From an archaeon (GTDB taxonomy: Archaea; Nanobdellota; Nanobdellia; Woesearchaeales; GCA-2686295), in assembly GCA_043817405.1 (NCBI GenBank), contig JBDRGV010000051.1, positions 1,960-65,959 on the forward strand: a DNA stretch of 64,000 nucleotides, in the 5' to 3' direction. Shown here in pieces: positions 1 through 48,653 of this stretch. Position 1 is the first letter of the stretch. Every line of letters starts with the position of its first letter. The position numbers and the translations under genes are program-made. The notes below the pieces were generated by a model. It worked only from the letters and a program-made list of their open reading frames with translations. It ran no database searches and had not been told where the DNA came from.

Positions 1-494
1 AATTCTCAGACAATCCAGATTACAAAACAACTTTCCCACCTCATTGTTTACAGAACACAAAAGGTGCAGAGTTTGTTCCTGCAACAAAACCTGAAAAACC
101 ATACATTATCAGTTGGCAAGATGAAGATTTCGATGCTGATGAAATATTCAACAGACGAAACATCGTTCTGTACAAGGATGCTTTCGATGTGTTTGACGAA
201 GTCGATGGAACACCTTGGGCCTATGAAGTATTAAACATTATAGACCCTACAAGAGTTTTGGTTTATGGTGTCGCAACTAATTACTGTGTTGATTTTGCAG
301 TCAAAGGTTTGCTTGAACGAAAGAATGGCTTTGAAGTTGACGTAGTAACCAATGCAATGAAAGAGATTCCAGAATGTAATTTGGAAGATAAATTCAAAGA
401 ATGGGAGGATTTGGGTGCTAATCTGATGACACTATCTAAAGAAGGATTTCTTGAGTATAATAATCCTAAAAACCCATATCTCGGACTAATATGA
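1..494 (+). CDS. pncA: Nicotinamidase (isochorismatase family), 5'-truncated at window edge
   Basis: Frame open from nt 3 with no stop. Motifs PHCLQNTKGAEF and VLVYGVATNYCVDFAV are typical of PncA/isochorismatase. Sits next to NAD genes. Confidence 0.6.
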   Translation, partial: FSDNPDYKTTFPPHCLQNTKGAEFVPATKPEKPYIISWQDEDFDADEIFNRRNIVLYKDAFDVFDEVDGTPWAYEVLNIIDPTRVLVYGVATNYCVDFAVKGLLERKNGFEVDVVTNAMKEIPECNLEDKFKEWEDLGANLMTLSKEGFLEYNNPKNPYLGLI

Positions 495-514: not shown

Positions 515-1894
515 ATGAAAAAACCTAATAAAATAATCATTCCTGAAATAGATGTTGTTCAGGTTCAAAGAGAAATTGAAGATTTCATAATTGACACAAT
601 TATCAATGCAGGTTCCACAGGAGGCGTTATTGGACTTAGTGGAGGTGTTGATTCAACCACAACTGCTGCTCTTGCAAAGAGTGCTTTTGACAGGTATAAT
701 GAAAACAATGATAATAAATTAACACTAGAAGGTTATATTCTACCTTCAAAAATAAATAGTCCTGATGATGCAAAAGATGGTGTCGCAGTTGCAAGAACAT
801 TAGGAATTAATTATCAGGTTTTAAGCATTGATCAGCAAATTGAGAGCTATAAAATCACTAATCCTGAAAGTATTTCTAATAAATTTCACAAAGGAAACCT
901 CACTTCCAGAATCAGAGCAAATATTCTTCATTCAAAAGCTGCTTTTGGAAATAAGTTAGTTATTGGAACTGGAAATAAAGATGAGGATTTCAGTTTGGGA
1001 TACTACACTTTATTTGGTGATGGTGCTGTTCATTTAAGTCCTATTGGTAATCTTTCTAAACGTTTTGTCAGACAGATTGCAGAACATTATGGTTTTGAGA
1101 ATATTGCTAATCGTGAACCAACGGCAGGCTTAGAAGCAGGACAAACTGATTTCAAAGATTTGGGTTACAGTTATTTCTTTGTTGAAATGCTTTCTGAAGC
1201 TTTGAAACAAGGTTTCAAATATAAAAATATTGTAGCCAGTCCGCAATTAAATGATGTGTACAAGAATGATTCTAATAATTATACTAAACAATATGACAAG
1301 CAAAAGTTCAAAACCATAGAAGATGCAATAGAGGATATTTATCATAGGCATGAAAGTGCCATGTTTAAAGCAGATATTGTACATCCACCGATGGCGCCTG
1401 TAACCTTGATTTATGATGGTGAAAAAAGAAAAGATAAATCTGAAATTAAAAGAAAAGGTTACGAACCTCCGATTCCAACAACAGACATTATTATTGAATA
1501 CAAAAACGGTGTGAAAGAAGGTCTTGTTTTGATTGAAAGAAATAATCCACCCTATGGTCTGGCTATTCCAGGTGGCTTTGCTGAAAGAGGAATTACTTTA
1601 GAACAAAACGCCATAAAAGAAGCTTTGGAAGAGACTGGTTTGAGTATTGATATAGAAACTCCTGAAAGACCTTTATGTGTACATTCCAATCCTAGCAGGG
1701 ATCCTAGAAACCATATGATTAGCGCTACTTACATTGCCAGAGGTCATGGAACCATTAGGGCTGGCGATGATGCTGCAAAAGCAGCTCTTTATTCAATTCC
1801 TGAAGTTAAAGAATTACTGAAAAAAGATGCTTTTGTTTTTGATCACGGACGAATCATTGAGAAATATCTGAAACATAGAGGTTTATATGACTAA
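515..1894 (+). CDS. nadE: NH3-dependent NAD+ synthetase (PP-loop SGGVDS) fused to a C-terminal Nudix hydrolase domain
   Basis: N-terminus has GLSGGVDSTT, the PP-loop ATP pyrophosphatase motif. C-terminus has PGGFAERGITLEQNAIKEALEETGL, a Nudix box with a GI/K variant. An AGGAA-type ribosome-binding site lies upstream. Confidence 0.75.
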   Translation: MKKPNKIIIPEIDVVQVQREIEDFIIDTIINAGSTGGVIGLSGGVDSTTTAALAKSAFDRYNENNDNKLTLEGYILPSKINSPDDAKDGVAVARTLGINYQVLSIDQQIESYKITNPESISNKFHKGNLTSRIRANILHSKAAFGNKLVIGTGNKDEDFSLGYYTLFGDGAVHLSPIGNLSKRFVRQIAEHYGFENIANREPTAGLEAGQTDFKDLGYSYFFVEMLSEALKQGFKYKNIVASPQLNDVYKNDSNNYTKQYDKQKFKTIEDAIEDIYHRHESAMFKADIVHPPMAPVTLIYDGEKRKDKSEIKRKGYEPPIPTTDIIIEYKNGVKEGLVLIERNNPPYGLAIPGGFAERGITLEQNAIKEALEETGLSIDIETPERPLCVHSNPSRDPRNHMISATYIARGHGTIRAGDDAAKAALYSIPEVKELLKKDAFVFDHGRIIEKYLKHRGLYD

Positions 1895-2507
1895 GCAATT
1901 TAAGAGATTAGGATTCATTGGAAGGTTCAAACCTTTGCATTTAGGAGCTTCAGCAGTACTCGAAGGATTATGCAAAGAAGCAGACGAAGTAATAATTGGA
2001 ATTGGTAGTTCCAATAAATATAATCTTCGTAATCCGTTCACGGCAGAAGAAACTGAAGATATGATTGATGCATACCTTTCTCCCAATCATTCAAACTATT
2101 CAATCGTCAGAATTCCTGATTACGCACATATTCCTAAATTTAACAATGGTAATGTGTGGACAGAGCATGTACTCAAAGAATTCGGTTCTTTAGATGCTTT
2201 TGTAACTGGAAATGAGTATGTGAATAAATTGTTAGAACCTCATTATAAAATTATTCATTCAGCTGAATTTGTTCCTTTTGAAAAAAGAACCAGATTGAGA
2301 GCATCAGCCGTTAGAGTTGAAATGGCCAGAAATGGTCCTTGGCAATCAATGGTTCCTGAAGAAGTCAAAGAATACCTGCAGAATAATTCTTTGATTAAAA
2401 GATTCAAGAAAGAATTTGGATTGGAAACCATCAGCAAACTAGTAACTGATAATTACTTTATGGATGAAACTAAAGATAAAGAAAAAATTCATACAATGGA
2501 GGTATAA
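1887..2507 (+). CDS. nadM: Nicotinamide/nicotinate mononucleotide adenylyltransferase, archaeal type
   Basis: GFIGRFKPLHLGA resembles the GRFQPFHxGH nucleotidyltransferase motif (second His replaced by Ala). About 200 aa. Overlaps the nadE stop by 8 nt. Confidence 0.65.
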   Translation: MTKQFKRLGFIGRFKPLHLGASAVLEGLCKEADEVIIGIGSSNKYNLRNPFTAEETEDMIDAYLSPNHSNYSIVRIPDYAHIPKFNNGNVWTEHVLKEFGSLDAFVTGNEYVNKLLEPHYKIIHSAEFVPFEKRTRLRASAVRVEMARNGPWQSMVPEEVKEYLQNNSLIKRFKKEFGLETISKLVTDNYFMDETKDKEKIHTMEV

Positions 2508-2508
2508 A

Positions 2509-3282
2509 ATGGGACGAATCGGAAACTATGAAATCATAAAACAAATCTCCGAAGGCGGATTTGGCAGAATATACCAAGCAAAACATATCTTTCTTGATGA
2601 GTTGGCTTGCATTAAACAGAACAAGGAAGATACCGATATGGACATTCAAATTCTAAGACAAGAAGCTAAATTATTATGGAAACTCGATGAGTATCATTCA
2701 ATACCTTCTGCTAAAGATTTTTTCAAAGTGGCTAAGGGAAGTTACGCTTTAGTTATGAGTTATATCGATGGAAAAACATTGGATGAGACTATTCCTAAAA
2801 ACAAGAAGATGAATCCTGAAGATGTTTGTTGGATTACTGAAAGATTACTTGGTGCATTGCATTATTTACATTATAATGGAGTTATTCATGCAGATGTTAA
2901 ACCTCAAAACGTGATTATTGAACCTAAAAAACATGATATCAAATTGATTGATTTCGGTTTGTCATCCTACATGCCTAAGAGTATTACTAAACCTTTAGGT
3001 TATACTGAAGTTTATGCTGCTCCTGAATTAATTCTTTTGAAACCACCAATTCCTGAAACTGATTTATACGGTGCAGGCGTTGTCATGCTTACGGCTCTCG
3101 GAGGCGATATTTACACAAAGAGTTTGCCAAAAACTGTGCATAAAGACATTGCAGATTTTTGCAACAAACTCTTAAGATATGATCCTAAGGAAAGACCCAA
3201 CTGGGATAAAAATAATCCCTTATTGGAATTATCAGATATCAGACAACATGTGTTCGGAAGAAAGCATGTTTCTGAAGCCTAG
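2509..3282 (+). CDS. Hanks-type Ser/Thr protein kinase
   Basis: GGFGRIYQAK (Gly loop plus Lys), HADVKPQNVII (catalytic loop), DFGLS and APE are all present. I moved the start to the ATG 2 nt after the nadM stop. Confidence 0.7.
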   Translation: MGRIGNYEIIKQISEGGFGRIYQAKHIFLDELACIKQNKEDTDMDIQILRQEAKLLWKLDEYHSIPSAKDFFKVAKGSYALVMSYIDGKTLDETIPKNKKMNPEDVCWITERLLGALHYLHYNGVIHADVKPQNVIIEPKKHDIKLIDFGLSSYMPKSITKPLGYTEVYAAPELILLKPPIPETDLYGAGVVMLTALGGDIYTKSLPKTVHKDIADFCNKLLRYDPKERPNWDKNNPLLELSDIRQHVFGRKHVSEA

Positions 3283-3321
3283 GATGAGTTAGAGCTAGCG
3301 GTAGCTCTGGAGGTATAGAAA

Positions 3322-4293
3322 ATGTATGGATGGGGTAGCGATACCAGCACATGGAAAAAACCAGGCAAGTACAAATATGACTCTGCCAAAAGTCCTTACT
3401 TGGATTCACTAGCCAGCAAATCGGCTGCAAAAGGACCACGAACATATAATATCGGAAGTGAACCAAATATGAAATTAGTCAATCCAAGAGGAAGGGATAT
3501 TTCCAGCGATAGTGAGAACCCTATAATTATAGGTGTTGATGTAACCGGTTCGATGTCTACATGGCCAGCTGAGATTTTTGATAGGTTGCCATTGTTTTAT
3601 CAGACATTGTCTCAGTACAAAGATGACTTAGACATAAGTTTTGGAGCAATAGGTGATGCCTATTGTGACACATATCCAATTCAGGTCAATAGCTTTGGCA
3701 AAGAAGTTAATTTAGAAGAACATTTGAAAGCATTGTATCCTGAAGGTGGCGGTGGCGGACAGAATAAAGAAACCTATGAGTTGTTTGCTTATTATATTTT
3801 AGAACATTGCAAGACTCCTAAGGCAAAATCTCCTTTCATGTTTATTTTTGGAGACGAAGATTTTTACAAAACTGTCAATCCTAAACAAGTAGAGCATTAC
3901 ATCGGTGATAAATTAGAGTCGCCAATGAAATCAAAAGATGTTTGGGATAAACTATTGCAAAGGTTTGATTTGTATTTGCTTCATAAACCATATGGTTCCG
4001 GTAGTGATGACAAGGAAGTAGTTGACAGTTGGGCTAATGCAATTGGCAGACAACGAATTGTAGAGTTGCCTAGCAAAGAAAGAGCAGTTGATATTGCAAT
4101 GGGAATTGTTGCTAAGAAATGGGGTAAGTTTTCTGACTTCAAAGATAATCTTAGCGCAAGACATGATAGTGATGGAGTTAAGGACTCTGTTTACAAATCA
4201 ATTGCATTTGTTGATGTTGACAGCTCACCAAACTCTGTTGTAAAAACAACTAAGAAAGGTACAAAGACTAAACCATTGAGCGAAATGCCTTGA
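3322..4293 (+). CDS. von Willebrand factor A (vWA, TerY-like) domain protein
   Basis: MIDAS motif DVTGSM (DxSxS), with later GGGGQNKET and FIFGDED segments. A GGAGG site lies upstream. Confidence 0.65.
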   Translation: MYGWGSDTSTWKKPGKYKYDSAKSPYLDSLASKSAAKGPRTYNIGSEPNMKLVNPRGRDISSDSENPIIIGVDVTGSMSTWPAEIFDRLPLFYQTLSQYKDDLDISFGAIGDAYCDTYPIQVNSFGKEVNLEEHLKALYPEGGGGGQNKETYELFAYYILEHCKTPKAKSPFMFIFGDEDFYKTVNPKQVEHYIGDKLESPMKSKDVWDKLLQRFDLYLLHKPYGSGSDDKEVVDSWANAIGRQRIVELPSKERAVDIAMGIVAKKWGKFSDFKDNLSARHDSDGVKDSVYKSIAFVDVDSSPNSVVKTTKKGTKTKPLSEMP

Positions 4294-4425
4294 TGATTTA
4301 AAAAAATAATTTTTGTGTGGTGAACATATGCAAAGAGAAAACTTGGAAGAAAAATTAAACGAAACACATCTTTGCAGGTTCACCAATATTTTTTATGATT
4401 ATAATATACAAACAGGTGAATTAAC

Positions 4426-5343
4426 ATGAAAAATGCTAAAGCTATTGTAACCATACCACCTTACGCTCCTTTTGTCAAAGAAGTTGTAAATCATCCTATT
4501 GTTTCAGGTCTTAGATTAAATACTGTTATGCCTGTTAATGAAAGTCTTGAAGATGTTTTAGGAAGATTGTATAAAGAAACTGAAAGTGCTGGTAAAGATT
4601 TATGGATTGATTTAAAATGCAGACAGTTGAGAGTTAAAAATTTTGGTGTACCTCCATTTACAGAAATTGAGTTGACTCATAATTTAGAAGTTAATACTCC
4701 TGTAACTGCTTATTTTTCTGATGGTGAAGAAAGCGCCACTGTTTTGAGAGTTGACGGTAATAAATTAATCATGCAGGAAGGTCCTAGAAGAGTTGTTGGT
4801 CCTGGCGAATCTGTTAATATCCCTGATAGATCTTTGAAGATTGATGGTTATTTAACAGAGGTTGATAAAAATTATATTAACGCTGCTAAAAGCATTGGTT
4901 TACATAATTATATGATTTCATATGTTGAAGGCAAGGAGGATGCTGGCAAAATTTTGAAGTTGGATTTTAAAGCCAACATAATTGAGAAAATCGAATCTTT
5001 GAAGGGTCTTAATTATGTTATGAAACATTGGGTTGGTAAAACTGGCCTAATGACTGCTCGCGGTGATTTATATGTTGAAATGAAATTACCCCATCAAGTA
5101 ATTGAAGCAGAAGAAATGATTATTGGCAAGGATGAGAACGCTGTTGTCGCTTCCAGAATATTCAGTTCATTAAGTCAAAGTTTGGAACCAACTTGCGCAG
5201 ACATTGGCGATGTTGATAATCTTTTAAGAATGGGCTATCGAACTTTCATGTTTGGAGATGATATTTGCATGCAGAGAGATTCAATAATGAGTGGCCTAAA
5301 TTTATTCAAAGCAATGGCTAAAAAGTACGAGGTTGGAAAATGA
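4426..5343 (+). CDS. Truncated pyruvate-kinase-like (PK barrel only) protein
   Basis: Collinear with the pyruvate kinase A domain. AIVTIPP matches IVCTIGP; SGLRLNTVMP matches AGMNVARLNFSHG; KIESLKG matches SKIEN (Lys and Glu kept); MTARGDLYVEM matches MVARGDLGIEI. No C-terminal domain; 305 aa. Confidence 0.5.
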   Translation: MKNAKAIVTIPPYAPFVKEVVNHPIVSGLRLNTVMPVNESLEDVLGRLYKETESAGKDLWIDLKCRQLRVKNFGVPPFTEIELTHNLEVNTPVTAYFSDGEESATVLRVDGNKLIMQEGPRRVVGPGESVNIPDRSLKIDGYLTEVDKNYINAAKSIGLHNYMISYVEGKEDAGKILKLDFKANIIEKIESLKGLNYVMKHWVGKTGLMTARGDLYVEMKLPHQVIEAEEMIIGKDENAVVASRIFSSLSQSLEPTCADIGDVDNLLRMGYRTFMFGDDICMQRDSIMSGLNLFKAMAKKYEVGK

Positions 5344-6425
5344 ATGAAGAACAGTTTATTGGAACTATTATCGGTTGTGCCATTGGTGATACTCTGGGCA
5401 TGCCTGTTGAAGGCTGGAAGAAAGAACAGATTGCAAGATATGCTGGAAGGATTACAGAACCTCGTGATCCAGTTATTGTAAAAGATAAAAATGGTAAAAT
5501 TGTTTATGGTGATGAGTTCGGTTATCTGAAATATCATACAAAATACATGAAAAAAGGTGAATGGACAGATGATACTATTTTGACATTGGCAATTGCTGAA
5601 GCGATCGCTGAGAATGGTTTGGATTTGGAAGCAATTGCAGAGTACCAATTGAAAGAATACAAGTCCAGAATACAAAAAGATGGTTCTGTTAGAGGCGGTT
5701 TTGGAAGAACCACTATCGGTGGTTTTGAAAACATGGAACGAGTTCGCAAGGGTGCAAAAACAGGTGTTGTTGGAGGACCTGGTAATGCTCCTGCGATGAA
5801 AGCAGGGCCTTTGGGTTTAGCTGCCGAATCTGAAGAACATATGATTGACCGTTATGATGATCGAAGGACTTTTTTGACAAGTGATTATGTTAAATTCGTC
5901 GAAGATGTTGCTAAAATGACTCATCTTGATCCGCGTTCAGTAAGGTCAGGAGTCATTCAGGCAAATGCTATAAACAATCTTTTGGACGGGGCTAACAAAG
6001 GTACTTTCATGACAAATATGTATCTGATTACCATGAGAGAAGAAAAAGTTCCTAAACATTACAGTTATTCATCCGGACCTTCTTTGTTTGATAAAATAGG
6101 TTGGGTCATGACACATGCACATGTTTCTCCTAATGTTGCTCACAAAAAATTAGGAAGTTCTAGTTTAGTCACTTCATCGTATCCTTTCGCTGTTTTCATG
6201 TTTCAGAAGTACTGGGATAATCCAATTGAAGGTTTGATTGAAACTGTGAATTATGGTGGCGATTGTGATACAACTGGTGCGATTTACGGTGCGCTTGCAG
6301 GTGCTAAGAACGGCATGATTTTTCCTAAGGAATGGGTTGATGTTTTGTATGAAAAAGAAAGATTGATTAACGCAGGAAAAAACCTATGGAGGCAGAGAAA
6401 TGAAAAAAGCATTGCTAATCTATAA
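5340..6425 (+). CDS. ADP-ribosylglycohydrolase (DraG/ARH family)
   Basis: N-terminal GCAIGDTLGMPVEG and C-terminal GGDCDTTGAIYGALAGAKNG are ARH signature motifs. Confidence 0.8.
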   Translation: MNEEQFIGTIIGCAIGDTLGMPVEGWKKEQIARYAGRITEPRDPVIVKDKNGKIVYGDEFGYLKYHTKYMKKGEWTDDTILTLAIAEAIAENGLDLEAIAEYQLKEYKSRIQKDGSVRGGFGRTTIGGFENMERVRKGAKTGVVGGPGNAPAMKAGPLGLAAESEEHMIDRYDDRRTFLTSDYVKFVEDVAKMTHLDPRSVRSGVIQANAINNLLDGANKGTFMTNMYLITMREEKVPKHYSYSSGPSLFDKIGWVMTHAHVSPNVAHKKLGSSSLVTSSYPFAVFMFQKYWDNPIEGLIETVNYGGDCDTTGAIYGALAGAKNGMIFPKEWVDVLYEKERLINAGKNLWRQRNEKSIANL

Positions 6426-7248
6426 GAAAAGCAAGTATGATATCCAAAGAAATTCTCCTGACAAATACATAAGAGACTATGCTGAGTCTGATGATGAAAC
6501 TGCTGTTGCGAGCAGAGAACAGCATAAAATCCATAAGGATTCTTTGGAAAGAGTCATTTCTGATTTAGATAAATCTGATTTTGATTATCAGACAATTTAT
6601 AGAGCTGATTTTGACAAATCAAAAGTTGATGATCATAATCTAGTGATTGCTTTTGGTGGCGATGGAACTTTTTTCAATGTGGCTCATTATATTTATGACA
6701 GACCTCTTCTAGGTGTTAATCCAGGCACTAGCGTTGGTTTTTATTGTCATGCAAACAGTGATGATTTCCATGAAGTAATAAATAGTATTGATGAGCAACC
6801 GATTACAAAAGTTCACAGATTAGAATTAGAGTTGAATGGAAAAATCATTCCTGAGCAGGTTTTGAATGATATTTTGATTGCAGATAATAATCCTGCAGCT
6901 TACACCTATTATTCTGTTGAAGACCATGGAGATGTGAATATCAAGAGGAGCAATGGTTTGTTGGTTGCAACTGCTGCTGGCTCTACTGCGTGGATTCGAA
7001 ATTTGAGAGGTGCAGTATTGCCTTTAGAATCTCCTTTAATTCAATATCATCACAGAGATGTTAATAGTCCTTTCTTCATAACTGATGGATTAAAAGTTAA
7101 ATCTTATTCTAGACAGGCAGATATATATGTTGATGGTGATCATTTGATGTATCCTTTTAATTTGGAAAGTGAACTAGTTATTAGAAATGGTAAACCTTTG
7201 CATATAATTGGCGAATTTACTGAGAAGAGAAGAAAGTATTTTGATTAG
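6400..7248 (+). CDS. nadK: NAD+ kinase
   Basis: GGDGT motif (LVIAFGGDGTFF). NDILIAD...NGLLVATAAGSTAW matches the NadK NE/D and GSTAYS regions. Confidence 0.8.
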   Translation: MKKALLIYKKSKYDIQRNSPDKYIRDYAESDDETAVASREQHKIHKDSLERVISDLDKSDFDYQTIYRADFDKSKVDDHNLVIAFGGDGTFFNVAHYIYDRPLLGVNPGTSVGFYCHANSDDFHEVINSIDEQPITKVHRLELELNGKIIPEQVLNDILIADNNPAAYTYYSVEDHGDVNIKRSNGLLVATAAGSTAWIRNLRGAVLPLESPLIQYHHRDVNSPFFITDGLKVKSYSRQADIYVDGDHLMYPFNLESELVIRNGKPLHIIGEFTEKRRKYFD

Positions 7249-40581: not shown

Positions 40582-40884
40582 ATGAGGGTTTTGGCTTTAT
40601 TTTCACTGGTAATAGTAGCTCTGCTAATTTCATGCTCTACAAATATAACACTCCAAGACAGGGTTAATGATGCTTTAGTAGGTAAAAACATAACTCATTA
40701 TTCTATAGCAGGAGTACCACTAACTCATGTAATAGAAGAATCTGACATTGGAAAAGCAGAGAACGCGTTGTATCAAAAACAAGAATACATTAGAGTAAAG
40801 ATAGGTCAAACTATATCTTGGAACCTGTATCTTGACAAAGAAACACTAGAGATTATACACACAGAACAATTATTTGTAACATGA
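40582..40884 (+). CDS. Small lipoprotein
   Basis: Signal peptide plus lipobox LLISCST. Confidence 0.45.
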   Translation: MRVLALFSLVIVALLISCSTNITLQDRVNDALVGKNITHYSIAGVPLTHVIEESDIGKAENALYQKQEYIRVKIGQTISWNLYLDKETLEIIHTEQLFVT

Positions 40885-43800
40885 AAAAAATTATTCCTTG
40901 GATATTAGTATTCTTAATCGTTAGTATGATTGTTTCTGCAGAAGTAAGAGTATCAAATAACGAAAAAAGCTTTATCTCCAAAGAAGAAAAGAAGGAAGTC
41001 ATTCTTAACATGCCAGGTATAAAGCAAACAGATATAACCATGAAGAAAGAACTGAAAGAACAAGGTTACAAATATACTTTCTATCAACAAAAATATAAAA
41101 ATTTAGAGGTATATGGTGCACAGATAAGCATCATCGAGAAAAACGAGAAATTAGTTTCTATAAAATCCAATTATGAAGAATTTGATATAAACACTAATCC
41201 ATTGTTAAGCTCAGAAGATGCTAGGGAGATAGTCTGCGATGATATTGGACTTGTTGTGAAATTAGAGCCAAAACTAATCATCTACAAAAACCAATTCAAA
41301 GGAGCCGATTATCTACTGGCTTACATCATAGAAACGCCACTGCTAGAAGGACCTGAAAGATGGCGATACATCATTGATGCAAGGACTGGAAATATAGTTA
41401 TAAAAGAGACTCTTGTAATAGAAATATATGGTTATGTTACAGCACAAGTATTTCCAGAAACACCTGCGCAAACACAAATAACAGTCAATCTGACAAATAA
41501 CAATATAACTTTATGGCAGAATGGTAGCTTTGTCGCTTCTACATTGACCAATAATGGATTTTACAACATATCAGGATATGATAACAATATAATATTAAAA
41601 TCAAATCTTGAAGGACCATATGTAAAAGTTCTGAACGCAAACCAGACAAGAGCCTATTTTGAGTACAACGGAACTGGAAATGAGAGTTACAGCTGGAACT
41701 GGAATGTCTCTGACAACAACTCTGACAGGAATGAAGAGTCAAACATGTTCTATCACATAAATATTGCTCATGATTATTTCACGAGCGGTGAACCTTTCAA
41801 CATAACACAGATGAATTATCAGATGAACGCTACAGTACAATACGGTTTAGTATGCAATGCATTCTATGATACAGTTGACAAAAATATATACTTCTACGGT
41901 GGCGCTGGTGGTTGCGACAACCCTGCACTTAGTGCAGATATAATTTATCATGAATATGTTCACGCAGTGACCACTGAGATTTACGATTGGTTTCCTTATT
42001 ATAAAATCACAGGCGCCATGAGTGAAGGTTTCTCAGACTATTTCGCAGCCACAATAACAAATGACCCTGCAATTGGAAATGGCAACTGGAATCCATACAT
42101 TAGGAACATCAGCAATACAAGAAGCTATATCAACAACTATGCAGAATGTCCATCAGGTCAAAATCCTAGTCCAGGCAATGATTACTGTTATGTGCATTCA
42201 AACTCAGACATTTTTAGCGGAGCATTATGGGATTTTAGGCAATTAGTAGGTAATGAAACTGCAGATACCTTGATAATGAGAACAATAAAAGCACAGCCTC
42301 ATAGTTTCTCAGAATTCATGGAAGACATGCTAATATTAGATGATGACAATGCTAATCTTTCTGATGGAACACCAAACAGTACATTCATCTGCCAGGCATT
42401 TACCAACCATGATATATATTCTTATTATTGTAATGAGACAAAACATTCTTTTGACATATCTGAAACTACTTTAAACTGGTACGATGCCGCTGCAAACGGC
42501 CAAATAGTATCTTCATCTGAATCAACTGATGGAACACAAGGAATGGATGATGATGACATAACAAAGCCAATCAATCTAAGCTTTTTATTCCCTTTCCACG
42601 GAAGCAAGTACTCAAAAATATACATCGGTTCAAACGGTCTGGTGACCTTGCAGAATTACTCAGTTTCTATATTCTGGGATGACTGCTTCATACCAGACAG
42701 CAACCTGCCAAACACAGTCATCGCACCATTATGCACTGACCTTGATCCAAGCAGTGGCGGAGATGTGTATTATTGGTCTCAAAGCGACAAGTTTGTCGTT
42801 GAGTGGAAAAATGTTGTGCCTTATGGACAGAGCGAACAACTAAATATAGAATTGATAATTTTCAATAACGGAAGCATAGTCATGCAGTTCCAAAACATCT
42901 CTGGAATCAGCAGCACTTCAACAAAGATAGGTGTAGAAGATGATATTGGTTTGGCAGCAGATCTGTTGAATTATACTGATGTAAATTCTCTTGATCCTTC
43001 TGCGTTCATATTCATACCAACAAATACTGCTCCTAATCTGACTTCTTCTGCTCCAGACATAAATACAAGCATTTCAGAACCTAACAATCAGACTTTCAAC
43101 ATAAGTTATGATGATTTTGAGAGCGACACTATATCTATAAAATGGTATGTTGATGGTATTCTTTTTGCTGAGAACTCTACGATATTTGCTTATAACAGCA
43201 CATACACTTCTTCAGGAAGCCATAACATAACAGTAAATATCAGCGATTATCTCGACACTACAAGTTATTCATGGATGCTTGTTGTCAACAACACAGATAC
43301 TATACCTTCCATTAACAGTTATTCTCCTGGCAATGGCAATGTCTCCATGGTCGAGAATAACACACAATTTTTCAACCACTCATCAAGTGATGTTGATGGT
43401 GATACATTAAGCTATTCATGGTATCTTAATAATTCTTTAGAAGCAAACACTAGTTATTGGAGCTTTACAGCCAACTTCACTACTGCCGGAAACTGGAATT
43501 TAACCTTGGTTGTCTCAGACCCTCAAGGTAATAATGTTAGCAATTACTGGAATCTGCTTGTGAACAACACCAACAGAGCACCTATCTGGAACTCATTCGA
43601 AAACCAATCAATACTAAGCAACGAAACGCTCAATTATTACTTGAACACGACTGATCCTGACGGAGATAGTGTGAGCTTTTGGGTGAATGAAAGTGCTGTA
43701 AATGTTTCTACAGACAACCTGACTTATACACCTGTTAATTTCACAGGAAACAAATCCATAAGTATAGCTGCTATGGACTATGAATCCAATACTACAATTA

Positions 43801-44819
43801 CATTGATTATAACAGTCGTTGCAATTAATTATTCACCGGTATTCAGCGGAACAATACTAAATCAAACATGGAATGAAAACACAGCAAAAACCAGTGCTTT
43901 CGATCTCGATGACTATTTCTCAGATACTGATAGCAACTTAACATTCAACTATACTAGCACTAATAACATCATAGTTTCCATATCTGCAACAAATATTGTC
44001 AGCTTCTCACAGCCTGCTGATTGGTACGGTACTGAAACCATAATATTCAACGCGACGGATGGAACAAACCATGTAGACTCAAACAACATAACATTAACGG
44101 TTAGTGAAGTCTTCTCAAGTAGTGGGGGCGGAGGAAGCGGAAGCGTTCCAGTTGCAGAAGATACAATTTTAAGATCATGGCCTATTGTAAATACTGGCGA
44201 TTCAAAAACATTGATGATTAACAAAGCAGAGATTCCTTTGAAAAGCATAAGCTTTGAGGCTGCATCCAAACTCGCTTCACCAAATATAGTAGTTCAAAAA
44301 CTTGATTCAGCTCCAACTGTTGGTGCAAAATCAGGCAATATTTACAAATACATAAAAATAACTCCAACAAGGATGGATGTAGCAAGCGTTAACATAATAT
44401 TTTATGTCAACAAAGAATGGATTAAAAACAATTCGATTCTGAACGAAGATATTGCATTGTTCAGGTATACTGACAAATGGGTTGAGCTTCCTACAGTTAT
44501 TTTAGATCAAAATCTGACTGATGTGATATACAATGCAACAGGTCTAGGATTCAGCTATTTCGCAATTGCAGAGAAAGAAAAAATTATTACTCTCGCTTCT
44601 GACAAAGGTACAATGTTTGAATGGGTGGATGATAATGAAACAGAGGAAATAATTGAAAAAGAAACTGTAGAAGAAGTAAATAAATCTATTACACCAATAG
44701 TAGAAAATGATTCGAAAGATTTCAAACCAATACCATATTTATTAAGTGCATTGTTGTTGTTCATAATAGTTTACATATCTAAATCCTATAAGAATAAAAA
44801 AAACATTTCTAAGAATTAA
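40881..44819 (+). CDS. Giant secreted thermolysin-like (M4/M36-like HExxH) metalloprotease with PKD/cadherin-like repeats and a C-terminal TM anchor
   Basis: Signal peptide. IIYHEYVHAVTTE matches thermolysin HELTHAVT, and GAMSEGFSDYFAA matches E...SD. Three or more repeated modules each contain a DxDGD segment (SDVDGDTLSY, TDPDGDSVSF, DDFESDTISI). Ends with a hydrophobic anchor and a KNKKN tail. Confidence 0.75.
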   Translation: MKKIIPWILVFLIVSMIVSAEVRVSNNEKSFISKEEKKEVILNMPGIKQTDITMKKELKEQGYKYTFYQQKYKNLEVYGAQISIIEKNEKLVSIKSNYEEFDINTNPLLSSEDAREIVCDDIGLVVKLEPKLIIYKNQFKGADYLLAYIIETPLLEGPERWRYIIDARTGNIVIKETLVIEIYGYVTAQVFPETPAQTQITVNLTNNNITLWQNGSFVASTLTNNGFYNISGYDNNIILKSNLEGPYVKVLNANQTRAYFEYNGTGNESYSWNWNVSDNNSDRNEESNMFYHINIAHDYFTSGEPFNITQMNYQMNATVQYGLVCNAFYDTVDKNIYFYGGAGGCDNPALSADIIYHEYVHAVTTEIYDWFPYYKITGAMSEGFSDYFAATITNDPAIGNGNWNPYIRNISNTRSYINNYAECPSGQNPSPGNDYCYVHSNSDIFSGALWDFRQLVGNETADTLIMRTIKAQPHSFSEFMEDMLILDDDNANLSDGTPNSTFICQAFTNHDIYSYYCNETKHSFDISETTLNWYDAAANGQIVSSSESTDGTQGMDDDDITKPINLSFLFPFHGSKYSKIYIGSNGLVTLQNYSVSIFWDDCFIPDSNLPNTVIAPLCTDLDPSSGGDVYYWSQSDKFVVEWKNVVPYGQSEQLNIELIIFNNGSIVMQFQNISGISSTSTKIGVEDDIGLAADLLNYTDVNSLDPSAFIFIPTNTAPNLTSSAPDINTSISEPNNQTFNISYDDFESDTISIKWYVDGILFAENSTIFAYNSTYTSSGSHNITVNISDYLDTTSYSWMLVVNNTDTIPSINSYSPGNGNVSMVENNTQFFNHSSSDVDGDTLSYSWYLNNSLEANTSYWSFTANFTTAGNWNLTLVVSDPQGNNVSNYWNLLVNNTNRAPIWNSFENQSILSNETLNYYLNTTDPDGDSVSFWVNESAVNVSTDNLTYTPVNFTGNKSISIAAMDYESNTTITLIITVVAINYSPVFSGTILNQTWNENTAKTSAFDLDDYFSDTDSNLTFNYTSTNNIIVSISATNIVSFSQPADWYGTETIIFNATDGTNHVDSNNITLTVSEVFSSSGGGGSGSVPVAEDTILRSWPIVNTGDSKTLMINKAEIPLKSISFEAASKLASPNIVVQKLDSAPTVGAKSGNIYKYIKITPTRMDVASVNIIFYVNKEWIKNNSILNEDIALFRYTDKWVELPTVILDQNLTDVIYNATGLGFSYFAIAEKEKIITLASDKGTMFEWVDDNETEEIIEKETVEEVNKSITPIVENDSKDFKPIPYLLSALLLFIIVYISKSYKNKKNISKN

Positions 44820-45917: not shown

Positions 45918-48653
45918 ATGAACAATCAAGAAAATAAAACCTATTGGCATCAAATATCTGTAGATGAAACTTTATTAGAATTAAAATCTTCAATCCATGG
46001 TTTAGAAGAGAATGAAGCAAAAAACAGACTCAAAATCAATGGTCCAAATACAATTGCTCAAGAAGAAAAAAATAAAGTTCTCAAACTATTGTTCAGAAAC
46101 TTTAACTCATTACTAATATACATCTTATTAGGAAGCGCCCTAATATCACTTTTTTCCAACCACCTAATTGAATTCACAGTAATTGCAATCATAATACTCA
46201 TAACAGGATTATTCGGTTTTATACAAGAATATCACGCCGGAAAATCACTTCAAGCACTATCTAAACTAACGGTTAAACATGTTGAAGTTTTACGCCATGG
46301 GGAAAAAACTCAAATCAACAAAGAAGAATTAGTTGTGGGAGATGTAATTGTTCTAAAAAGAGGAATGATAGTTCCAGCAGATGTTAGGGTTATCGAAAAC
46401 AAAGGATTATCTGCCGATGAATCAATTCTAACGGGCGAATCAATACAAAAATACAAACGAATAGATGAAATAGAAGAGCTGGAAGTCCCAATAAGTGACC
46501 AACACAACATGTTATTCGCAGGAACAAGCATAACAAATGGTCATGGACACGGAATAGTCATTGCAACTGGTTTAGAATCAGAAATCGGAAAAATATCTCA
46601 AACCCTGAAGAAAATAGGTTTTCAAAGAAGCCCTTTGCAAAAACAAATAGATGAAATGAGCAGAAGAATCGCCTACACAATCATTTTTGCATGCGCATTT
46701 CTTCTAATAATATTATTCACAAAGAACTTCGGAATATTTGAATCACTAATATTAGTTGGCGCAGTAGCAGTCTCAGGAATACCAGAAAGTTTTCCTTTAG
46801 CCATGACAATGTCCTTATCCAATGGTGTTAAAAGAATGGCCAAGAAGAATGCCATAGTAAAAGATCTGAGCTCCGTTGAAACCCTAGGAACCACAACCGT
46901 GATTTGCACCGATAAAACCGGTACACTAACGGAAAATAAAATGCTCGTAGAAAAAGTTTTCTTTGCAGACGGAACCGAAATTGAAGTAAAAGGACATGAA
47001 TATAATCCAACAAACACATTTTCAAACAAACAAGGAGTTTTCGAAAAACACCGATTCACCAACTATCAAGAATTCTTTAAAGCATGTATTCTGTGCAATA
47101 ATGCACAGCTTTTAATCAAAGATGAAGAATGGGCTCTATCGGGAGAACCAACCGAAGGAGCAATATTATCATTGGCTAAAAGCGCAGGTTTTGACGATCT
47201 CACAATAAAAAAAGAAAATAAACAACTACTGGAAATCCCTTTTGACCCATTCGAAAAATTCATGATAACAATAAATGAACATGAAAATCAAAAAACTGCT
47301 TATCTAAAAGGAGCGGCTGAAAAAATCCTTGAGAAATGCACTCATATAAGAACAAAAAATAAAGAAGTAATCAAACTAAACCAAAAACTGATTGATGAAA
47401 TATTAGCACAGGTAAATCATTATAGCAACCAAACCTATAGAGTTCTGGGAATTGCAACCAAACAAGTAGATAATATACAATCAAATCTTAATTCAGAATT
47501 CATATTTGAAGGACTGATGGGAATTGACGACCCCATACGTGAGCAAGCATATCAAGCAGTAAAAGAATGTCAAAGCGCCAACGTCAGAGTAATAATGATT
47601 ACCGGAGACCATAAACACACAGCCAAAAGTGTCGGGAAGAAACTCGGCCTAATGACATCAAATGAAGATTTAATTCTTGAAGGACATGAACTTGATAAGA
47701 TGAGTGATGAAGAATTGGATAAAATTATTTCTAAAGTAGTAATATTTTCAAGAACAACACCAGACCATAAGTTTAGAATTGTATGTTCTCTGCAAAGAAA
47801 AGGTGAAATTGTAGCTATGACTGGTGACGGAGTAAACGACGCACCCGCATTAAAAAAAGCTGATATAGGTGTTAGCATGGGTAAATCAGGGACAGATGTG
47901 GCCAGAGAAGCATCAAACATGGTGCTAACAGACGATCATTTCTCAACCATAGTCAATGCAATAAAAGAAGGAAGGACCATTTACAGCAACATAAGACGGT
48001 TCATATACTATCTGTTAACAGGCAACATGACAGAAGTAATACTCATAATATCAACCATCTTGATTGGATTAACGACGCCTTTAACAGCCCTAATGATTCT
48101 ATTCATTAATTTAGTAACAAGCACATTTCCAGCGATGGCGTTAAGCGTTGAATCCACCCATATAAAAGTGATGAAACAAAAACCTAGAAATCCAAGTGAA
48201 AAAATATTATCACATTATATTTTATTAAAAATACTTGTATTGGTTCCCCTATTGTTTTTAGGAACATTAGCATTATTCTTGTGGGAACTAAACACGCCTG
48301 GTGGAAGCATAGAAAAAGCTCGAACAGTGGCATTTGCAACGCTTATAATGTTTGAACTACTGCATACATTTAATGCAAGATCACTACACACAACCATCTT
48401 TAACAAGAACTTCTTTTCAAACAAATACATATTCATAGCAGTAGGCACATCATTGGCATTAACATTACTAACAATATATAGTGGAATAGGACAAAAAATC
48501 TTTAACACAGTTTCATTATCAGCCACGGAATGGATAATGATAACAATTGTAAGCAGCCTAGTAATAATAGTTGCAGAGATAATAAAATCACTTATAAAAA
48601 GCGAATTCAAAGAGCAAAAAAGACTGAAAGGATTAGAAATACAAGTTGAGTAA
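45918..48653 (+). CDS. Cation-transporting P-type ATPase (P2-type)
   Basis: ICTDKTGTLTENKM (DKTGT), MITGDHKHTA, TGDGVNDAPALKKADIGVSMG, and a 10-TM layout. 911 aa. Confidence 0.85.
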   Translation: MNNQENKTYWHQISVDETLLELKSSIHGLEENEAKNRLKINGPNTIAQEEKNKVLKLLFRNFNSLLIYILLGSALISLFSNHLIEFTVIAIIILITGLFGFIQEYHAGKSLQALSKLTVKHVEVLRHGEKTQINKEELVVGDVIVLKRGMIVPADVRVIENKGLSADESILTGESIQKYKRIDEIEELEVPISDQHNMLFAGTSITNGHGHGIVIATGLESEIGKISQTLKKIGFQRSPLQKQIDEMSRRIAYTIIFACAFLLIILFTKNFGIFESLILVGAVAVSGIPESFPLAMTMSLSNGVKRMAKKNAIVKDLSSVETLGTTTVICTDKTGTLTENKMLVEKVFFADGTEIEVKGHEYNPTNTFSNKQGVFEKHRFTNYQEFFKACILCNNAQLLIKDEEWALSGEPTEGAILSLAKSAGFDDLTIKKENKQLLEIPFDPFEKFMITINEHENQKTAYLKGAAEKILEKCTHIRTKNKEVIKLNQKLIDEILAQVNHYSNQTYRVLGIATKQVDNIQSNLNSEFIFEGLMGIDDPIREQAYQAVKECQSANVRVIMITGDHKHTAKSVGKKLGLMTSNEDLILEGHELDKMSDEELDKIISKVVIFSRTTPDHKFRIVCSLQRKGEIVAMTGDGVNDAPALKKADIGVSMGKSGTDVAREASNMVLTDDHFSTIVNAIKEGRTIYSNIRRFIYYLLTGNMTEVILIISTILIGLTTPLTALMILFINLVTSTFPAMALSVESTHIKVMKQKPRNPSEKILSHYILLKILVLVPLLFLGTLALFLWELNTPGGSIEKARTVAFATLIMFELLHTFNARSLHTTIFNKNFFSNKYIFIAVGTSLALTLLTIYSGIGQKIFNTVSLSATEWIMITIVSSLVIIVAEIIKSLIKSEFKEQKRLKGLEIQVE

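What the first reader, a model, noticed from the sequence alone, without database searches (positions are those of the whole stretch)
515..1894. NadE-Nudix fusion protein
The PP-loop NAD synthetase domain (SGGVDS) is fused to a C-terminal Nudix domain. The Nudix box is slightly non-canonical: GGFAERGI...IKEALEETGL has GI in place of GE, and K in place of R. NadM-Nudix fusions are known; a NadE-Nudix arrangement is unusual. It would couple the last step of NAD synthesis with ADP-ribose or NAD(H) hydrolysis in one polypeptide.
Basis: seen in the sequence. Interest (0 to 1): 0.6.

Follow-up and report, generated by a model that had tools for sequence, protein, structure and literature searches.

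The report
NAD synthetase fused to Nudix hydrolase

Summary
Window 515..1894 (+) is one uninterrupted 459-aa ORF with a complete NH3-type NAD synthetase domain (PP-loop SGGVDS) and a C-terminal Nudix domain. The Nudix box has Ile and Lys where Glu and Arg are canonical.

The window comes from an NCBI archaeal MAG, where the protein is annotated only as "NAD(+) synthase". In eight related DPANN loci, nadE, nudix and a nadM-like gene are separate. In most they are tightly packed neighbours inside an NAD salvage operon. The window protein is therefore a fusion of two adjacent genes.

It is not unique. A second, distantly related family of at least eight NadE-Nudix fusion clusters sits in the same operon, and rough trees indicate independent origins.

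The odd Nudix box is a clade trait. L/I plus K covary in the DPANN clade, E plus R in a bacterial sister clade, and the REUxEE glutamates are kept.

The closest characterised relatives are the ADP-ribose pyrophosphatase domains of NadM-Nudix and NrtR. The most likely function is NAD synthetase plus ADP-ribose pyrophosphatase, co-expressed for NAD recycling without channelling.

Caveat: a one-base insertion in the linker, for example in the A6 run, would split the ORF into two genes, and reads could not be checked.

The parts
515..1894 (+). Complete NadE-Nudix fusion ORF, 459 aa, with an ATG start and a TAA stop
515..1414 (+). NH3-dependent NAD synthetase (NadE) domain, aa 1-300. It ends with the clade's conserved C-terminal motif HPPxAPVTLxY.
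   Evidence: Pfam PF02540 E 2e-50 and TIGR00552 above its cut-off. PDB 2e18, 3p52 and 3fiu match at E 1e-25 to 1e-29. The C-termini of 14 relatives were compared.
638..655 (+). PP-loop ATP-pyrophosphatase motif SGGVDS (aa 42-47)
   Evidence: The motif is invariant in the eight-fusion alignment A3.
1415..1456 (+). Lys/Glu-rich linker of 14 aa, DGEKRKDKSEIKRK (aa 301-314). It contains the A6 run at 1422-1427. It replaces the stop codon, spacer and start codon seen in relatives.
   Evidence: The full-length model has pLDDT below 50 over aa 281-316.
1457..1891 (+). Nudix hydrolase domain (aa 315-459). It starts at the family's N-terminal motif GYxxPIPTTD.
   Evidence: Pfam PF00293. Stand-alone homologues reach 71% identity. 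AF2 pLDDT is 92 and Foldseek hits 2yyh, 2fml, 3gz8, 2qjt and 2qjo.
1574..1642 (+). Nudix box GFAERGITLEQNAIKEALEETGL. Box position 7 is Ile (canonical Glu) and position 15 is Lys (canonical Arg). The glutamates at box positions 16, 19 and 20 are kept.
1688..1714 (+). X-loop NPSRDPRNH, 16-24 residues after the Nudix box. Its P-x-R-(D/S)-x-R pattern is shared with the NadM-Nudix ADP-ribose pyrophosphatases 2qjo and 2qjt.
   Evidence: The role of the X-loop is taken from PMC5389931.
1760..1774 (+). AGDDA motif, nearly invariant in the family and shared with 2qjo, 2qjt, 2fml and 3i9x
1..494 (+). Operon neighbour: 3' part of a nicotinamidase-like (PncA, isochorismatase family) gene, cut by the window edge
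   Evidence: The same position is occupied in L001, L003, L004 and L095.
1887..2507 (+). Operon neighbour: NadM-like nicotinamide/nicotinate-nucleotide adenylyltransferase. Its start overlaps the fusion ORF's stop by 8 nt.
2464..5343 (+). Operon neighbours conserved with the NAD genes in relatives: a Ser/Thr kinase (2464-3282), a 323-aa protein with no family match (3322-4293) and a protein resembling only the pyruvate kinase barrel (4426-5343)
   Evidence: The same trio follows the nadM-like gene in L003, L004, L093 and L095. L001 and L096 hold the kinase and the unknown protein before the held DNA ends.
5340..7248 (+). Operon neighbours: ADP-ribosylglycohydrolase (5340-6425) and NAD kinase (6400-7248)

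Best explanation
The ORF encodes a bifunctional protein made by in-frame fusion of two neighbouring genes of a conserved archaeal (DPANN-type) NAD salvage and recycling operon.

The N-terminal 300 residues are a single-domain, ammonia-type NAD synthetase (NaAD + ATP + NH3 -> NAD + AMP + PPi). A Lys/Glu-rich linker of 14 aa lies inside a longer stretch predicted with low confidence. It leads to a complete Nudix domain of the NadM-Nudix/NrtR lineage. This domain most likely hydrolyses free ADP-ribose to AMP and ribose-5-phosphate.

The two reactions are not consecutive. They belong to one recycling loop. NAD-consuming enzymes and the operon's ADP-ribosylglycohydrolase release nicotinamide and ADP-ribose. 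Nicotinamide returns to NAD through PncA, PncB, NadM and NadE. ADP-ribose is split by the Nudix domain, and the ribose-5-phosphate can feed PRPP for PncB.

Fusion would fix 1:1 co-expression of two proteins that relatives already translate from tightly packed, often overlapping genes. No channelling is implied.

What is shown: the domain identities, the operon context, the separateness of the genes in relatives, recurrence of the fusion, and conservation of the metal-binding residues. What is inferred: the substrate (ADP-ribose), catalytic competence of the L/I-K box, and the physiological rationale.
For: Domains: Pfam and NCBIfam hits. PDB NadE homologues match at E 2e-29. The Nudix model has pLDDT 92, and its top solved matches are 2yyh, the NrtR family protein 2fml, the NrtR-ADPR complex 3gz8, and NadM-Nudix 2qjt and 2qjo. 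With the family profile, 2qjo scores 4e-14 and 2qjt 7e-14. The X-loop P-x-R-(D/S)-x-R and the GDDA motif are shared with them.

Operon: pncA, nadE::nudix, nadM-like, Ser/Thr kinase, unknown protein, PK-barrel-like protein, ADP-ribosylglycohydrolase and NAD kinase lie in the window. The same set occurs in relatives, with PncB and sometimes NrtR.

Fusion of neighbours: the closest NadE homologues (52-59% identity) are about 300 aa and lack a Nudix domain. The closest Nudix homologues (up to 71%) are 110-202 aa, mostly about 150, and stand alone. In eight distinct DPANN loci the genes are separate, and where measured they lie -8 to +14 nt apart. The junction keeps the whole NadE C-terminus (VTLIY) and the whole Nudix N-motif (GYxxPIPTTD).

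The architecture is viable and recurrent. P0281, P0304, P0393 and others are colinear NadE-Nudix proteins. Two of them sit in the same operon. Rough NJ trees place the window's domains among unfused relatives and away from that family.

The box is under selection. L/I+K occurs in 84 of 120 homologues and E+R in 25 of 120. The glutamates at box positions 16, 19 and 20 are kept in 114, 120 and 114 of 120. An active Nudix enzyme with Lys in place of Arg, E. coli YffH, is on record (PMC5389931). Archaeal single-domain NadE is an ammonia-dependent NAD synthetase and archaeal NadM uses both NMN and NaMN (PMC3376133).
Against: The fused ORF is known from one MAG contig only. Its 90% cluster has one member. 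An extra base at almost any position from 1415 to 1452, for example in the A6 run at 1422-1427, would give two ordinary overlapping genes.

No biochemical data exist for any member of this Nudix clade. The best structural match, 2yyh, is itself uncharacterised.

PMC2330246 describes the canonical signature as strictly conserved in active Nudix hydrolases and reports that NrtR proteins with perturbed signatures are inactive. Activity of the L/I-K box is therefore unproven.

The two enzyme reactions are not sequential, so the selective benefit of fusion is unclear. The fusion may be neutral.
Confidence: 0.6

Rival explanations
1. The fusion is an assembly or sequencing artefact, or a very recent inactivating frameshift. 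Under this view the organism really has two genes: nadE ending ...YDGEKKKR*, and nudix starting MMVKKRKDKSEIKRKGYEPPIPTTD at ATG 1413, overlapping by about 25 nt. One base of an A7 run would have been lost.
For: Simulating every single-base indel shows that an insertion at almost any position from 1415 to 1452 restores a NadE stop within a few codons and a Nudix ORF with ATG/ATG/GTG starts at 1413-1421. The linker contains the A6 run at 1422-1427. All eight related DPANN loci have two genes. The fused protein is a singleton cluster.
Against: About 19-21% of random positions inside the window's other long ORFs also give such a 'clean' split after a +1 insertion, so this is weak evidence. The window carries intact ORFs of 1312, 911, 643 and 596 aa, which is not the pattern of an indel-rich assembly. 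The implied overlap of about 25 nt is longer than the -8 to +14 nt spacing in relatives. The same architecture exists and has diversified in another lineage within the same operon, so the fusion is biologically tolerated.
Confidence: 0.15
2. The Nudix domain is catalytically active but ADP-ribose is not its main substrate. It might cleave NAD(H) or NaAD, which would give NMN or NaMN plus AMP. It might cleave diadenosine polyphosphates, or remove ADPR caps from RNA.
For: Substrate specificity cannot be read from sequence. The X-loop residues differ in detail from 2qjo and 2qjt (RDPR against RSLR and RSVR). The box variant (L/I-K, with Glu for Asp at box position 4) marks a distinct subfamily. 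An archaeal ADPR-type Nudix, Saci_NudT5, decaps ADPR-RNA (PMC10663502). Foldseek also finds NudC, NUDT12 and Ap4A/Ap6A hydrolases at E near 1e-7 to 1e-8.
Against: By both sequence and fold, the closest relatives with a known ligand or activity are ADPR binders or hydrolases: NadM-Nudix, NrtR and EF2700. There is no NudC-type SQPWPFPxS motif. A zinc-ribbon domain was found only in the unrelated protein P0354. The operon contains an ADP-ribosylglycohydrolase, which produces free ADPR. Hydrolysing NAD beside its own synthetase would be a futile cycle.
Confidence: 0.17
3. [quoted passage not shown]
For: Two of the most conserved signature residues are replaced. PMC2330246 reports that NrtR proteins with perturbed signatures lack activity, and that restoring the canonical signature in Slr1690 raised its rate 600-fold. 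The family profile matches the NrtR family members 2fml (E 1.7e-27) and 3gz8.
Against: According to PMC2330246, replacements in NrtR are 'more or less random'. Here the replacements are fixed (L/I and K) and covary, and the three glutamates at box positions 16, 19 and 20 are 95-100% conserved. In most genomes the protein is a free-standing protein of about 150 aa with no partner domain. Genuine NrtR regulators with wHTH domains are encoded separately beside the operon in some relatives.
Confidence: 0.07

Closest known systems
Bifunctional NadM-Nudix (NMN adenylyltransferase / ADP-ribose pyrophosphatase; Synechocystis slr0787 PDB 2qjo, Francisella PDB 2qjt/2r5w)
   Same: An NAD-biosynthetic enzyme is fused to a C-terminal Nudix domain of the same Nudix lineage. 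The family profile matches at E 4e-14 and 7e-14. The X-loop P-x-R-x-x-R and the GDDA motif are shared. Fold matches have Foldseek probability 1.00.
   Different: The partner domain is NadE, a PP-loop amidotransferase that catalyses the last step, not the adenylyltransferase. NCBIfam NadM-Nudix models score 16-32 bits against cut-offs of 354-449. The adenylyltransferase is a separate downstream gene. The Nudix box has I/K where NadM-Nudix has the canonical E/R.
Single-domain NH3-dependent NAD synthetase NadE (M. jannaschii MJ1352; P. horikoshii PDB 2e18)
   Same: It has a full NadE core with the SGGVDS PP-loop and no glutaminase domain. PDB hits score E 2e-29. The archaeal enzyme is characterised as ammonia-dependent (PMC3376133).
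   Different: It carries the clade-specific C-terminal extension of about 70 aa that other DPANN NadE proteins have, and in addition a fused Nudix domain of 145 aa.
Uncharacterised archaeal NadE-Nudix fusion family (P0281, P0387, P0390-P0394, P0304; 403-423 aa)
   Same: Same domain order, colinear alignment over about 430 aa, and the same operon: (PncB, PncA) NadE::Nudix, NadM-like, Ser/Thr kinase, unknown protein (PK-like).
   Different: Identity is only 32-38%. The NadE and Nudix halves of that family fall in other clades than the window's in rough NJ trees, so the fusion events look independent. Most members have a canonical or near-canonical box (E or Q at position 7, R or K at position 15) and a shorter linker.
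Stand-alone DPANN Nudix proteins next to nadE (for example AYK26_05950 of 'Euryarchaeota archaeon SM23-78', P0123)
   Same: Identity is 60-71% and the L/I-K Nudix box is the same. The operon position, between nadE and the nadM-like gene, is the same in seven of eight loci.
   Different: They are separate proteins of about 150 aa with their own start codons. Where measured, nadE and nudix lie -8 to +14 nt apart.
NrtR Nudix-related transcriptional regulators (EF2700 PDB 2fml; Shewanella NrtR PDB 3gz8)
   Same: Same Nudix lineage with ADPR as the ligand. The family profile matches 2fml at E 1.7e-27 and there are fold matches.
   Different: There is no winged-helix DNA-binding domain. The catalytic glutamates are conserved, whereas many NrtR proteins have degenerate signatures.
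Aquifex aeolicus Nudix protein, PDB 2yyh
   Same: It is the best solved relative: 42% identity, TM 0.77/0.89, and E 2e-49 with the family profile.
   Different: It stands alone, has the canonical E/R box, and no function is given in the entry. It belongs with the bacterial sister clade, which is not linked to NAD genes.

Membership tests
NAD synthetase NadE (PF02540 / TIGR00552), NH3-dependent single-domain type | Full-length match to the family model above the curated cut-off | tested here: met
   PF02540 scores 171.5 bits (cut-off 21) over profile positions 3-238 of 242. TIGR00552 scores 159.7 bits (cut-off 63.65).
NAD synthetase NadE (PF02540 / TIGR00552), NH3-dependent single-domain type | PP-loop ATP-binding motif SGGxDS | tested here: met
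   SGGVDS lies at aa 42-47 and is invariant across the eight fusion proteins.
NAD synthetase NadE (PF02540 / TIGR00552), NH3-dependent single-domain type | No CN_hydrolase glutaminase domain (this separates it from glutamine-dependent NadE) | tested here: met
   No CN_hydrolase hit. The relative L004 does carry CN_hydrolase+NadE.
NAD synthetase NadE (PF02540 / TIGR00552), NH3-dependent single-domain type | Amidation of NaAD (rather than NaMN) with ammonia | not testable with these tools
   Inferred from characterised archaeal MJ1352 (PMC3376133). Francisella-type NMN synthetase activity is not excluded, since 3fiu is among the top PDB hits.
Nudix hydrolase superfamily (PF00293) | Nudix alpha/beta/alpha fold | tested here: met
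   The AF2 model has pLDDT 92.4. All 50 listed Foldseek PDB matches (best E 3e-16) are Nudix-family structures.
Nudix hydrolase superfamily (PF00293) | Canonical Nudix box GX5EX7REUXEEXGU | tested here: not met
   The box reads G-x5-I-x7-K-E-A-L-E-E-T-G-L. The first Glu and the Arg are replaced, and the E, EE, G and U positions are kept. The variant is fixed in the DPANN clade.
Nudix hydrolase superfamily (PF00293) | Metal-dependent pyrophosphohydrolase activity | not testable with these tools
   The glutamates at box positions 16, 19 and 20 are conserved in 114, 120 and 114 of 120 homologues. YffH is an active enzyme with K in place of R.
ADP-ribose pyrophosphatase, NadM-Nudix/NrtR lineage ('ADP-ribose (2)' clade of PMC5389931) | Closest characterised relatives by sequence and fold belong to this lineage | tested here: met
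   2fml, 3gz8, 2qjo, 2qjt and 3i9x rank directly after the uncharacterised 2yyh.
ADP-ribose pyrophosphatase, NadM-Nudix/NrtR lineage ('ADP-ribose (2)' clade of PMC5389931) | X-loop and downstream motifs shared with the ADPR-bound structures | tested here: inconclusive
   P-x-R-(D/S)-x-R and GDDA align with 2qjo and 2qjt.
ADP-ribose pyrophosphatase, NadM-Nudix/NrtR lineage ('ADP-ribose (2)' clade of PMC5389931) | Preference for ADP-ribose as substrate | not testable with these tools
   Supported only by context: ADP-ribosylglycohydrolase, PncA and NadE/NadM lie in the same operon.
Bifunctional NadM-Nudix (NCBIfam PRK05379 models) | N-terminal NMN adenylyltransferase domain fused to the Nudix domain, with a score above the model cut-off | tested here: not met
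   The best NadM-Nudix model scores 32.3 bits against a cut-off of 354, and only the Nudix half matches. The adenylyltransferase is the separate gene at 1887-2507.
NrtR transcriptional regulator | C-terminal winged-helix domain (WHD_NrtR) after the Nudix domain | tested here: not met
   The query has no WHD hit, and the protein ends 14 residues after the Nudix match. True NrtR genes (NUDIX+WHD_NrtR) are separate genes in L004, L091 and L094.

The most novel reading that the evidence does not exclude
NadE and this L/I-K-box Nudix protein form an obligate functional unit in DPANN-type archaea. The recurrent independent fusions would be the trace of a physical NadE-Nudix complex. In this reading the Nudix partner has been retuned, through the covarying E-to-L/I and R-to-K change. 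It might act on a substrate other than free ADP-ribose, such as NaAD, NAD or an ADPR derivative. Or it might gate NAD synthetase according to ADPR level. This unit would work within a not yet described NAD-homeostasis module that also contains a NadM-like enzyme lacking the second His of HxGH, a Ser/Thr kinase, an unknown protein of about 320 aa and a PK-barrel-only protein.
Probability: 0.15. Interest if true: 0.65.

Novelty: new variant of a known kind. Interest (0 to 1): 0.38.

Why it matters
Gene fusions of this 'Rosetta stone' type are direct evidence that two proteins work together. Two apparently independent NadE-Nudix fusions were found. The same neighbourhood also holds NadE-NMNAT, PncA-NadE and Nudix-NadM-like fusions. 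Together they tie this uncharacterised Nudix subfamily to NAD recycling in genome-reduced DPANN-type archaea, which probably depend heavily on salvage.

The finding extends the NadM-Nudix paradigm to the last enzyme of the pathway. It offers a natural test of whether a Nudix box lacking the canonical first Glu and the Arg can be active. It also flags a conserved operon whose kinase, unknown-protein and PK-like members have no assigned role.

It does not reveal a new kind of system. Both enzymatic parts belong to well-known families.

Tried and rejected
1. Phage origin. I suspected this at first from the AT-rich sequence, the kinase, the ADP-ribosylglycohydrolase and the NAD genes. No phage record covers 80% or more of the protein. 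The protein is from an archaeal MAG with DPANN relatives. There are no PADLOC hits except generic kinase models.

2. Genome-contig scan with the single protein. It returned only five bacterial Nudix loci and no relatives of the fusion.

3. Metagenome-contig scan with the Nudix alignment. 78 of 80 loci belong to the bacterial sister clade with the canonical box and have no linked NAD genes. Only L011 and L012 were informative.

4. Mixed alignment A2 (query plus NadE plus Nudix homologues) for a full-length model. MAFFT stretched the NadE sequences over the whole query, so A2 was discarded. A3, the eight fusion proteins, was used instead. It gave only a moderate model (pLDDT 70.7, pTM 0.55) with low confidence over aa 281-316.

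5. Shine-Dalgarno test for an internal Nudix start at 1413. Only 29% of the window's ORF starts have an SD-like motif against a 14% background, so the absence of one is uninformative.

6. Reconstructing the ancestral junction at nucleotide level. The closest relatives are only 59% and 71% identical, so this was not possible. Only a single-indel scenario could be simulated.

7. Two source papers cited for NadM-Nudix and for Slr1690 are not held. The afdb50 fold library is unavailable.

8. Three literature searches found no description of a NadE-Nudix fusion or of this DPANN operon.
Full report
**Observation**

Window 515..1894 (+) is a single 459-aa ORF with an ATG start, a TAA stop and no internal stop. 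Pfam finds NAD_synthase at aa 19-266 (E 2.2e-50) and NUDIX at aa 335-445 (E 4.5e-11). NCBIfam TIGR00552 (nadE) scores 159.7 bits against a cut-off of 63.65. The C-terminal part gives weak hits to the Nudix half of the NadM-Nudix models.

The PP-loop SGGVDS is at aa 42-47. The Nudix box GFAERGITLEQNAIKEALEETGL is at aa 354-376.

An AlphaFold2 model of the last 160 residues, built with 61 homologues, has pLDDT 92.4 and pTM 0.85. Its best solved matches are all Nudix folds.

**Origin**

The identical protein is NCBI MFH1589813.1, 'MAG: NAD(+) synthase [archaeon]'. It is the only member of its 90% cluster and lies on a 73.7-kb contig.

The closest NadE homologues (52-59% identity) are proteins of about 290-335 aa from Woesearchaeota and Nanoarchaeota MAGs. 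None of the other 119 listed homologues carries a Nudix domain. The Nudix part alone finds stand-alone proteins of 110-202 aa, mostly about 150, from the same groups, at up to 71% identity. An initial suspicion of a phage origin was dropped.

**What it is: a fusion of neighbouring operon genes**

Ten contexts of relatives were retrieved. In seven distinct DPANN loci nadE is directly followed by nudix. In five of these the next gene is a nadM-like gene.

- L001/L002, L003, L004/L005, L011 and L093 have nadE | nudix | nadM-like. Spacing between nadE and nudix is -4 to +14 nt.
- L012 has the same order, but the exact nudix start was not determined.
- L091/L092 has nadE fused to a different adenylyltransferase domain, followed by a separate nudix that overlaps it by 8 nt.
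- In an eighth locus, L094, nudix lies between pncA and an ADP-ribosylglycohydrolase gene.

The surrounding genes are the same as in the window. They include nicotinate phosphoribosyltransferase and nicotinamidase upstream. Downstream lie a Ser/Thr kinase, an unknown protein of about 320 aa and a protein resembling only the pyruvate kinase barrel. An ADP-ribosylglycohydrolase, NAD kinase and sometimes NrtR also occur.

In the window the order is pncA (1-494, cut by the edge), nadE::nudix (515-1894) and nadM-like (1887-2507). These are followed by the kinase (2464-3282), the unknown protein (3322-4293) and the PK-barrel-like protein (4426-5343). The ADP-ribosylglycohydrolase (5340-6425) and NAD kinase (6400-7248) come last.

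The junction is seamless. The NadE part keeps the clade's complete C-terminal motif (...HPPMAPVTLIY, aa 300). A Lys/Glu-rich linker of 14 aa follows (DGEKRKDKSEIKRK). The Nudix part then begins at the family's conserved N-terminal motif (GYEPPIPTTD, compare MTVRDGYRNPIPTTD in P0122).

A full-length model built on a shallow alignment has low confidence over aa 281-316 and pTM 0.55. That fits two independently folding domains on a flexible tether.

**Is the fusion real?**

No stop and no ATG, GTG or TTG start occurs in frame in the linker. However, a one-base insertion at almost any position from 1415 to 1452, for example in the A6 run at 1422-1427, would yield two ordinary genes. These would be NadE ending ...YDGEKKKR* and Nudix starting MMVKKRKDKSEIKRKGY..., overlapping by about 25 nt.

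I measured how special that is. About 19-21% of random positions in the window's other long ORFs give an equally clean split, so the evidence is weak. Shine-Dalgarno analysis was uninformative. The window's long intact ORFs, up to 1312 aa, argue against an indel-rich assembly.

The strongest argument for biological plausibility came from the exhaustive HMMER search of 1.84 billion cluster representatives. P0281 (421 aa) and P0304 (412 aa) are NAD_synthase+NUDIX proteins. They align colinearly with the query over about 430 residues at 34% and 32% identity.

They belong to a family of at least eight 90% clusters that are 47-75% identical to P0281. Two members sit in the same operon:

- L095: PncB, PncA, NadE::Nudix, NadM-like, kinase, unknown protein, PK-like.
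- L096: NadE::Nudix, NadM-like, kinase, unknown protein.

Rough NJ trees place the window's Nudix domain inside the stand-alone DPANN clade. They place its NadE with the unfused NadE proteins of about 300 aa. The other fusions form their own Nudix clade. The window protein is therefore most simply an independent, second origin of the same architecture.

Other fusions among these neighbours also occur:

- NadE-NMNAT: P0113, P0260, P0275, P0299.
- PncA-NadE: P0259, P0287.
- Nudix-NadM-like: P0298, P0302.
- Nudix-Nudix-NadM-like: P0274.
- Classic NMNAT-Nudix: P0318, P0340, P0375.

I put the chance that the window's fusion is real at about 0.8. Reads could not be examined.

**The non-canonical Nudix box**

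Among 120 homologues, box positions 7 and 15 are L/I+K in 84 and E+R in 25, with almost no mixed states. The L/I-K state goes with Glu at box position 4 and Asn at position 12 and marks the DPANN clade. The E-R state marks a bacterial sister clade at 40-50% identity. The glutamates at box positions 16, 19 and 20 are kept in 114, 120 and 114 of 120.

None of the 83 sister-clade loci examined has a detectable relative of the window's NAD genes nearby.

PMC5389931 suggests that the first Glu stabilises the loop-helix-loop of the box. It also lists an active enzyme, E. coli YffH, with Lys in place of Arg. A fixed, covarying replacement looks like a compensated structural change under purifying selection. 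It does not look like the 'more or less random' decay described for inactive NrtR proteins (PMC2330246). That activity is retained is an inference.

**Function**

By sequence profile and by fold, the nearest relatives with a known ligand or activity are the following, and all of them bind or hydrolyse ADP-ribose:

- the NrtR-family protein EF2700 (2fml, E 1.7e-27);
- the ADPR pyrophosphatase domains of Synechocystis and Francisella NadM-Nudix (2qjo at 4e-14, 2qjt at 7e-14);
- the NrtR-ADPR complex 3gz8.

The X-loop, said in PMC5389931 to lie about 17 residues after the box and to select the 'X' moiety, reads NPSRDPRNH in the window. It shares P-x-R-(D/S)-x-R with 2qjo and 2qjt, as does the GDDA motif.

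Archaeal single-domain NadE (MJ1352) is an ammonia-dependent NAD synthetase, and archaeal NadM uses both NMN and NaMN (PMC3376133).

The best-supported mechanism is a bifunctional NAD synthetase / ADP-ribose pyrophosphatase within an operon that recycles both breakdown products of NAD. Nicotinamide returns through PncA, PncB, NadM and NadE. ADP-ribose, partly released by the ADP-ribosylglycohydrolase, is split by the Nudix domain into AMP and ribose-5-phosphate. The ribose-5-phosphate can feed PRPP, the link drawn for bacteria in PMC2330246.

The two reactions are not consecutive, so fusion gives stoichiometric co-expression and not channelling.

Three rivals remain:

- an indel artefact or recent frameshift (0.15);
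- another dinucleotide or ADPR-RNA as substrate (0.17; compare Saci_NudT5 in PMC10663502);
- a non-catalytic sensor domain (0.07).

**Comparison and novelty**

This works like NadM-Nudix but is not a member of that family, because the adenylyltransferase domain is absent from the polypeptide. It is not an NrtR, because it has no wHTH domain. It is a member of the NadE family and of the Nudix superfamily, with a variant box.

Three literature searches found no description of a NadE-Nudix fusion or of this operon. The proteins exist in public databases under generic names.

I rate it a new variant of a known kind, of moderate interest. It is useful as Rosetta-stone evidence and as a pointer to an uncharacterised, conserved archaeal NAD module. 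It is not a surprise in mechanism.

Noticed in passing
window 1887-2507 (+), motif at about 1938-1949: The NadM-like adenylyltransferase downstream of the fusion reads GRFKPLHLGA. The second His of the nucleotidyltransferase HxGH motif is Ala. In the five related loci read (L001, L003, L004, L011, L012) the same position is Ala or Gly. The protein scores below the curated NMNAT cut-offs (99 against 127 bits, 83 against 181 bits). The family also has a conserved C-terminal extension (RFRKEFGLETL...). Whether it is still an NMN/NaMN adenylyltransferase is open.
   Followed up: partly
window 2464-5343 (+); L003, L004, L093, L095 (partly L001, L096): A Ser/Thr protein kinase, an unknown protein of about 320 aa and a protein of about 300 aa resembling only the pyruvate kinase barrel follow the nadM-like gene in the window and in L003, L004, L093 and L095. 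L001 and L096 hold the kinase and the unknown protein before the held DNA ends. The unknown protein has no Pfam, NCBIfam, PADLOC or PDB sequence match and contains a DVTGSM stretch. Their role in an NAD operon is unknown.
   Followed up: partly
window 5340-7248 (+): An ADP-ribosylglycohydrolase (PF03747, E 3e-50) is followed by a divergent NAD kinase (PF01513; NCBIfam NAD kinase models score about 56 bits, below cut-off). The two overlap by 26 nt. They extend the cluster to NADP synthesis and ADP-ribose release.
   Followed up: partly
P0113/L091, P0260, P0275, P0299, P0259, P0287, P0298, P0302, P0274: Many other pairwise fusions of the same operon's genes exist in public metagenomes. They include NadE-NMNAT (NadD-like in P0113), PncA-NadE, Nudix-NadM-like (the reverse order to classic NadM-Nudix) and a Nudix-Nudix-NadM-like protein of 539 aa.
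   Followed up: partly
L004 90-770, L091 6427-7089, L094 1-274: NrtR-type regulators (NUDIX + WHD_AraR/WHD_NrtR) are encoded next to the operon in three related loci. NrtR was described as a bacterial regulator family, and binding sites were not searched here.
   Followed up: no
L006-L010, L013-L090: A bacterial sister clade of the Nudix domain (40-50% identity, canonical E/R box, includes Aquifex 2yyh) shows no detectable relative of the window's NAD genes within the flanks held. The NAD linkage and the L/I-K box therefore go together.
   Followed up: partly
L004 3008-4999, L012 944-2971: In L004 the nadE gene upstream of the stand-alone nudix is the long, glutaminase-fused form (CN_hydrolase+NAD_synthase, 663 aa). 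L012 has a similarly long open frame at that position, not scanned for domains. The Nudix partner is therefore not tied to one NadE type.
   Followed up: no
window 40881-44819 and 45918-48653 (+): Two very long ORFs (1312 and 911 aa) and most of the remaining window were not examined.
   Followed up: no
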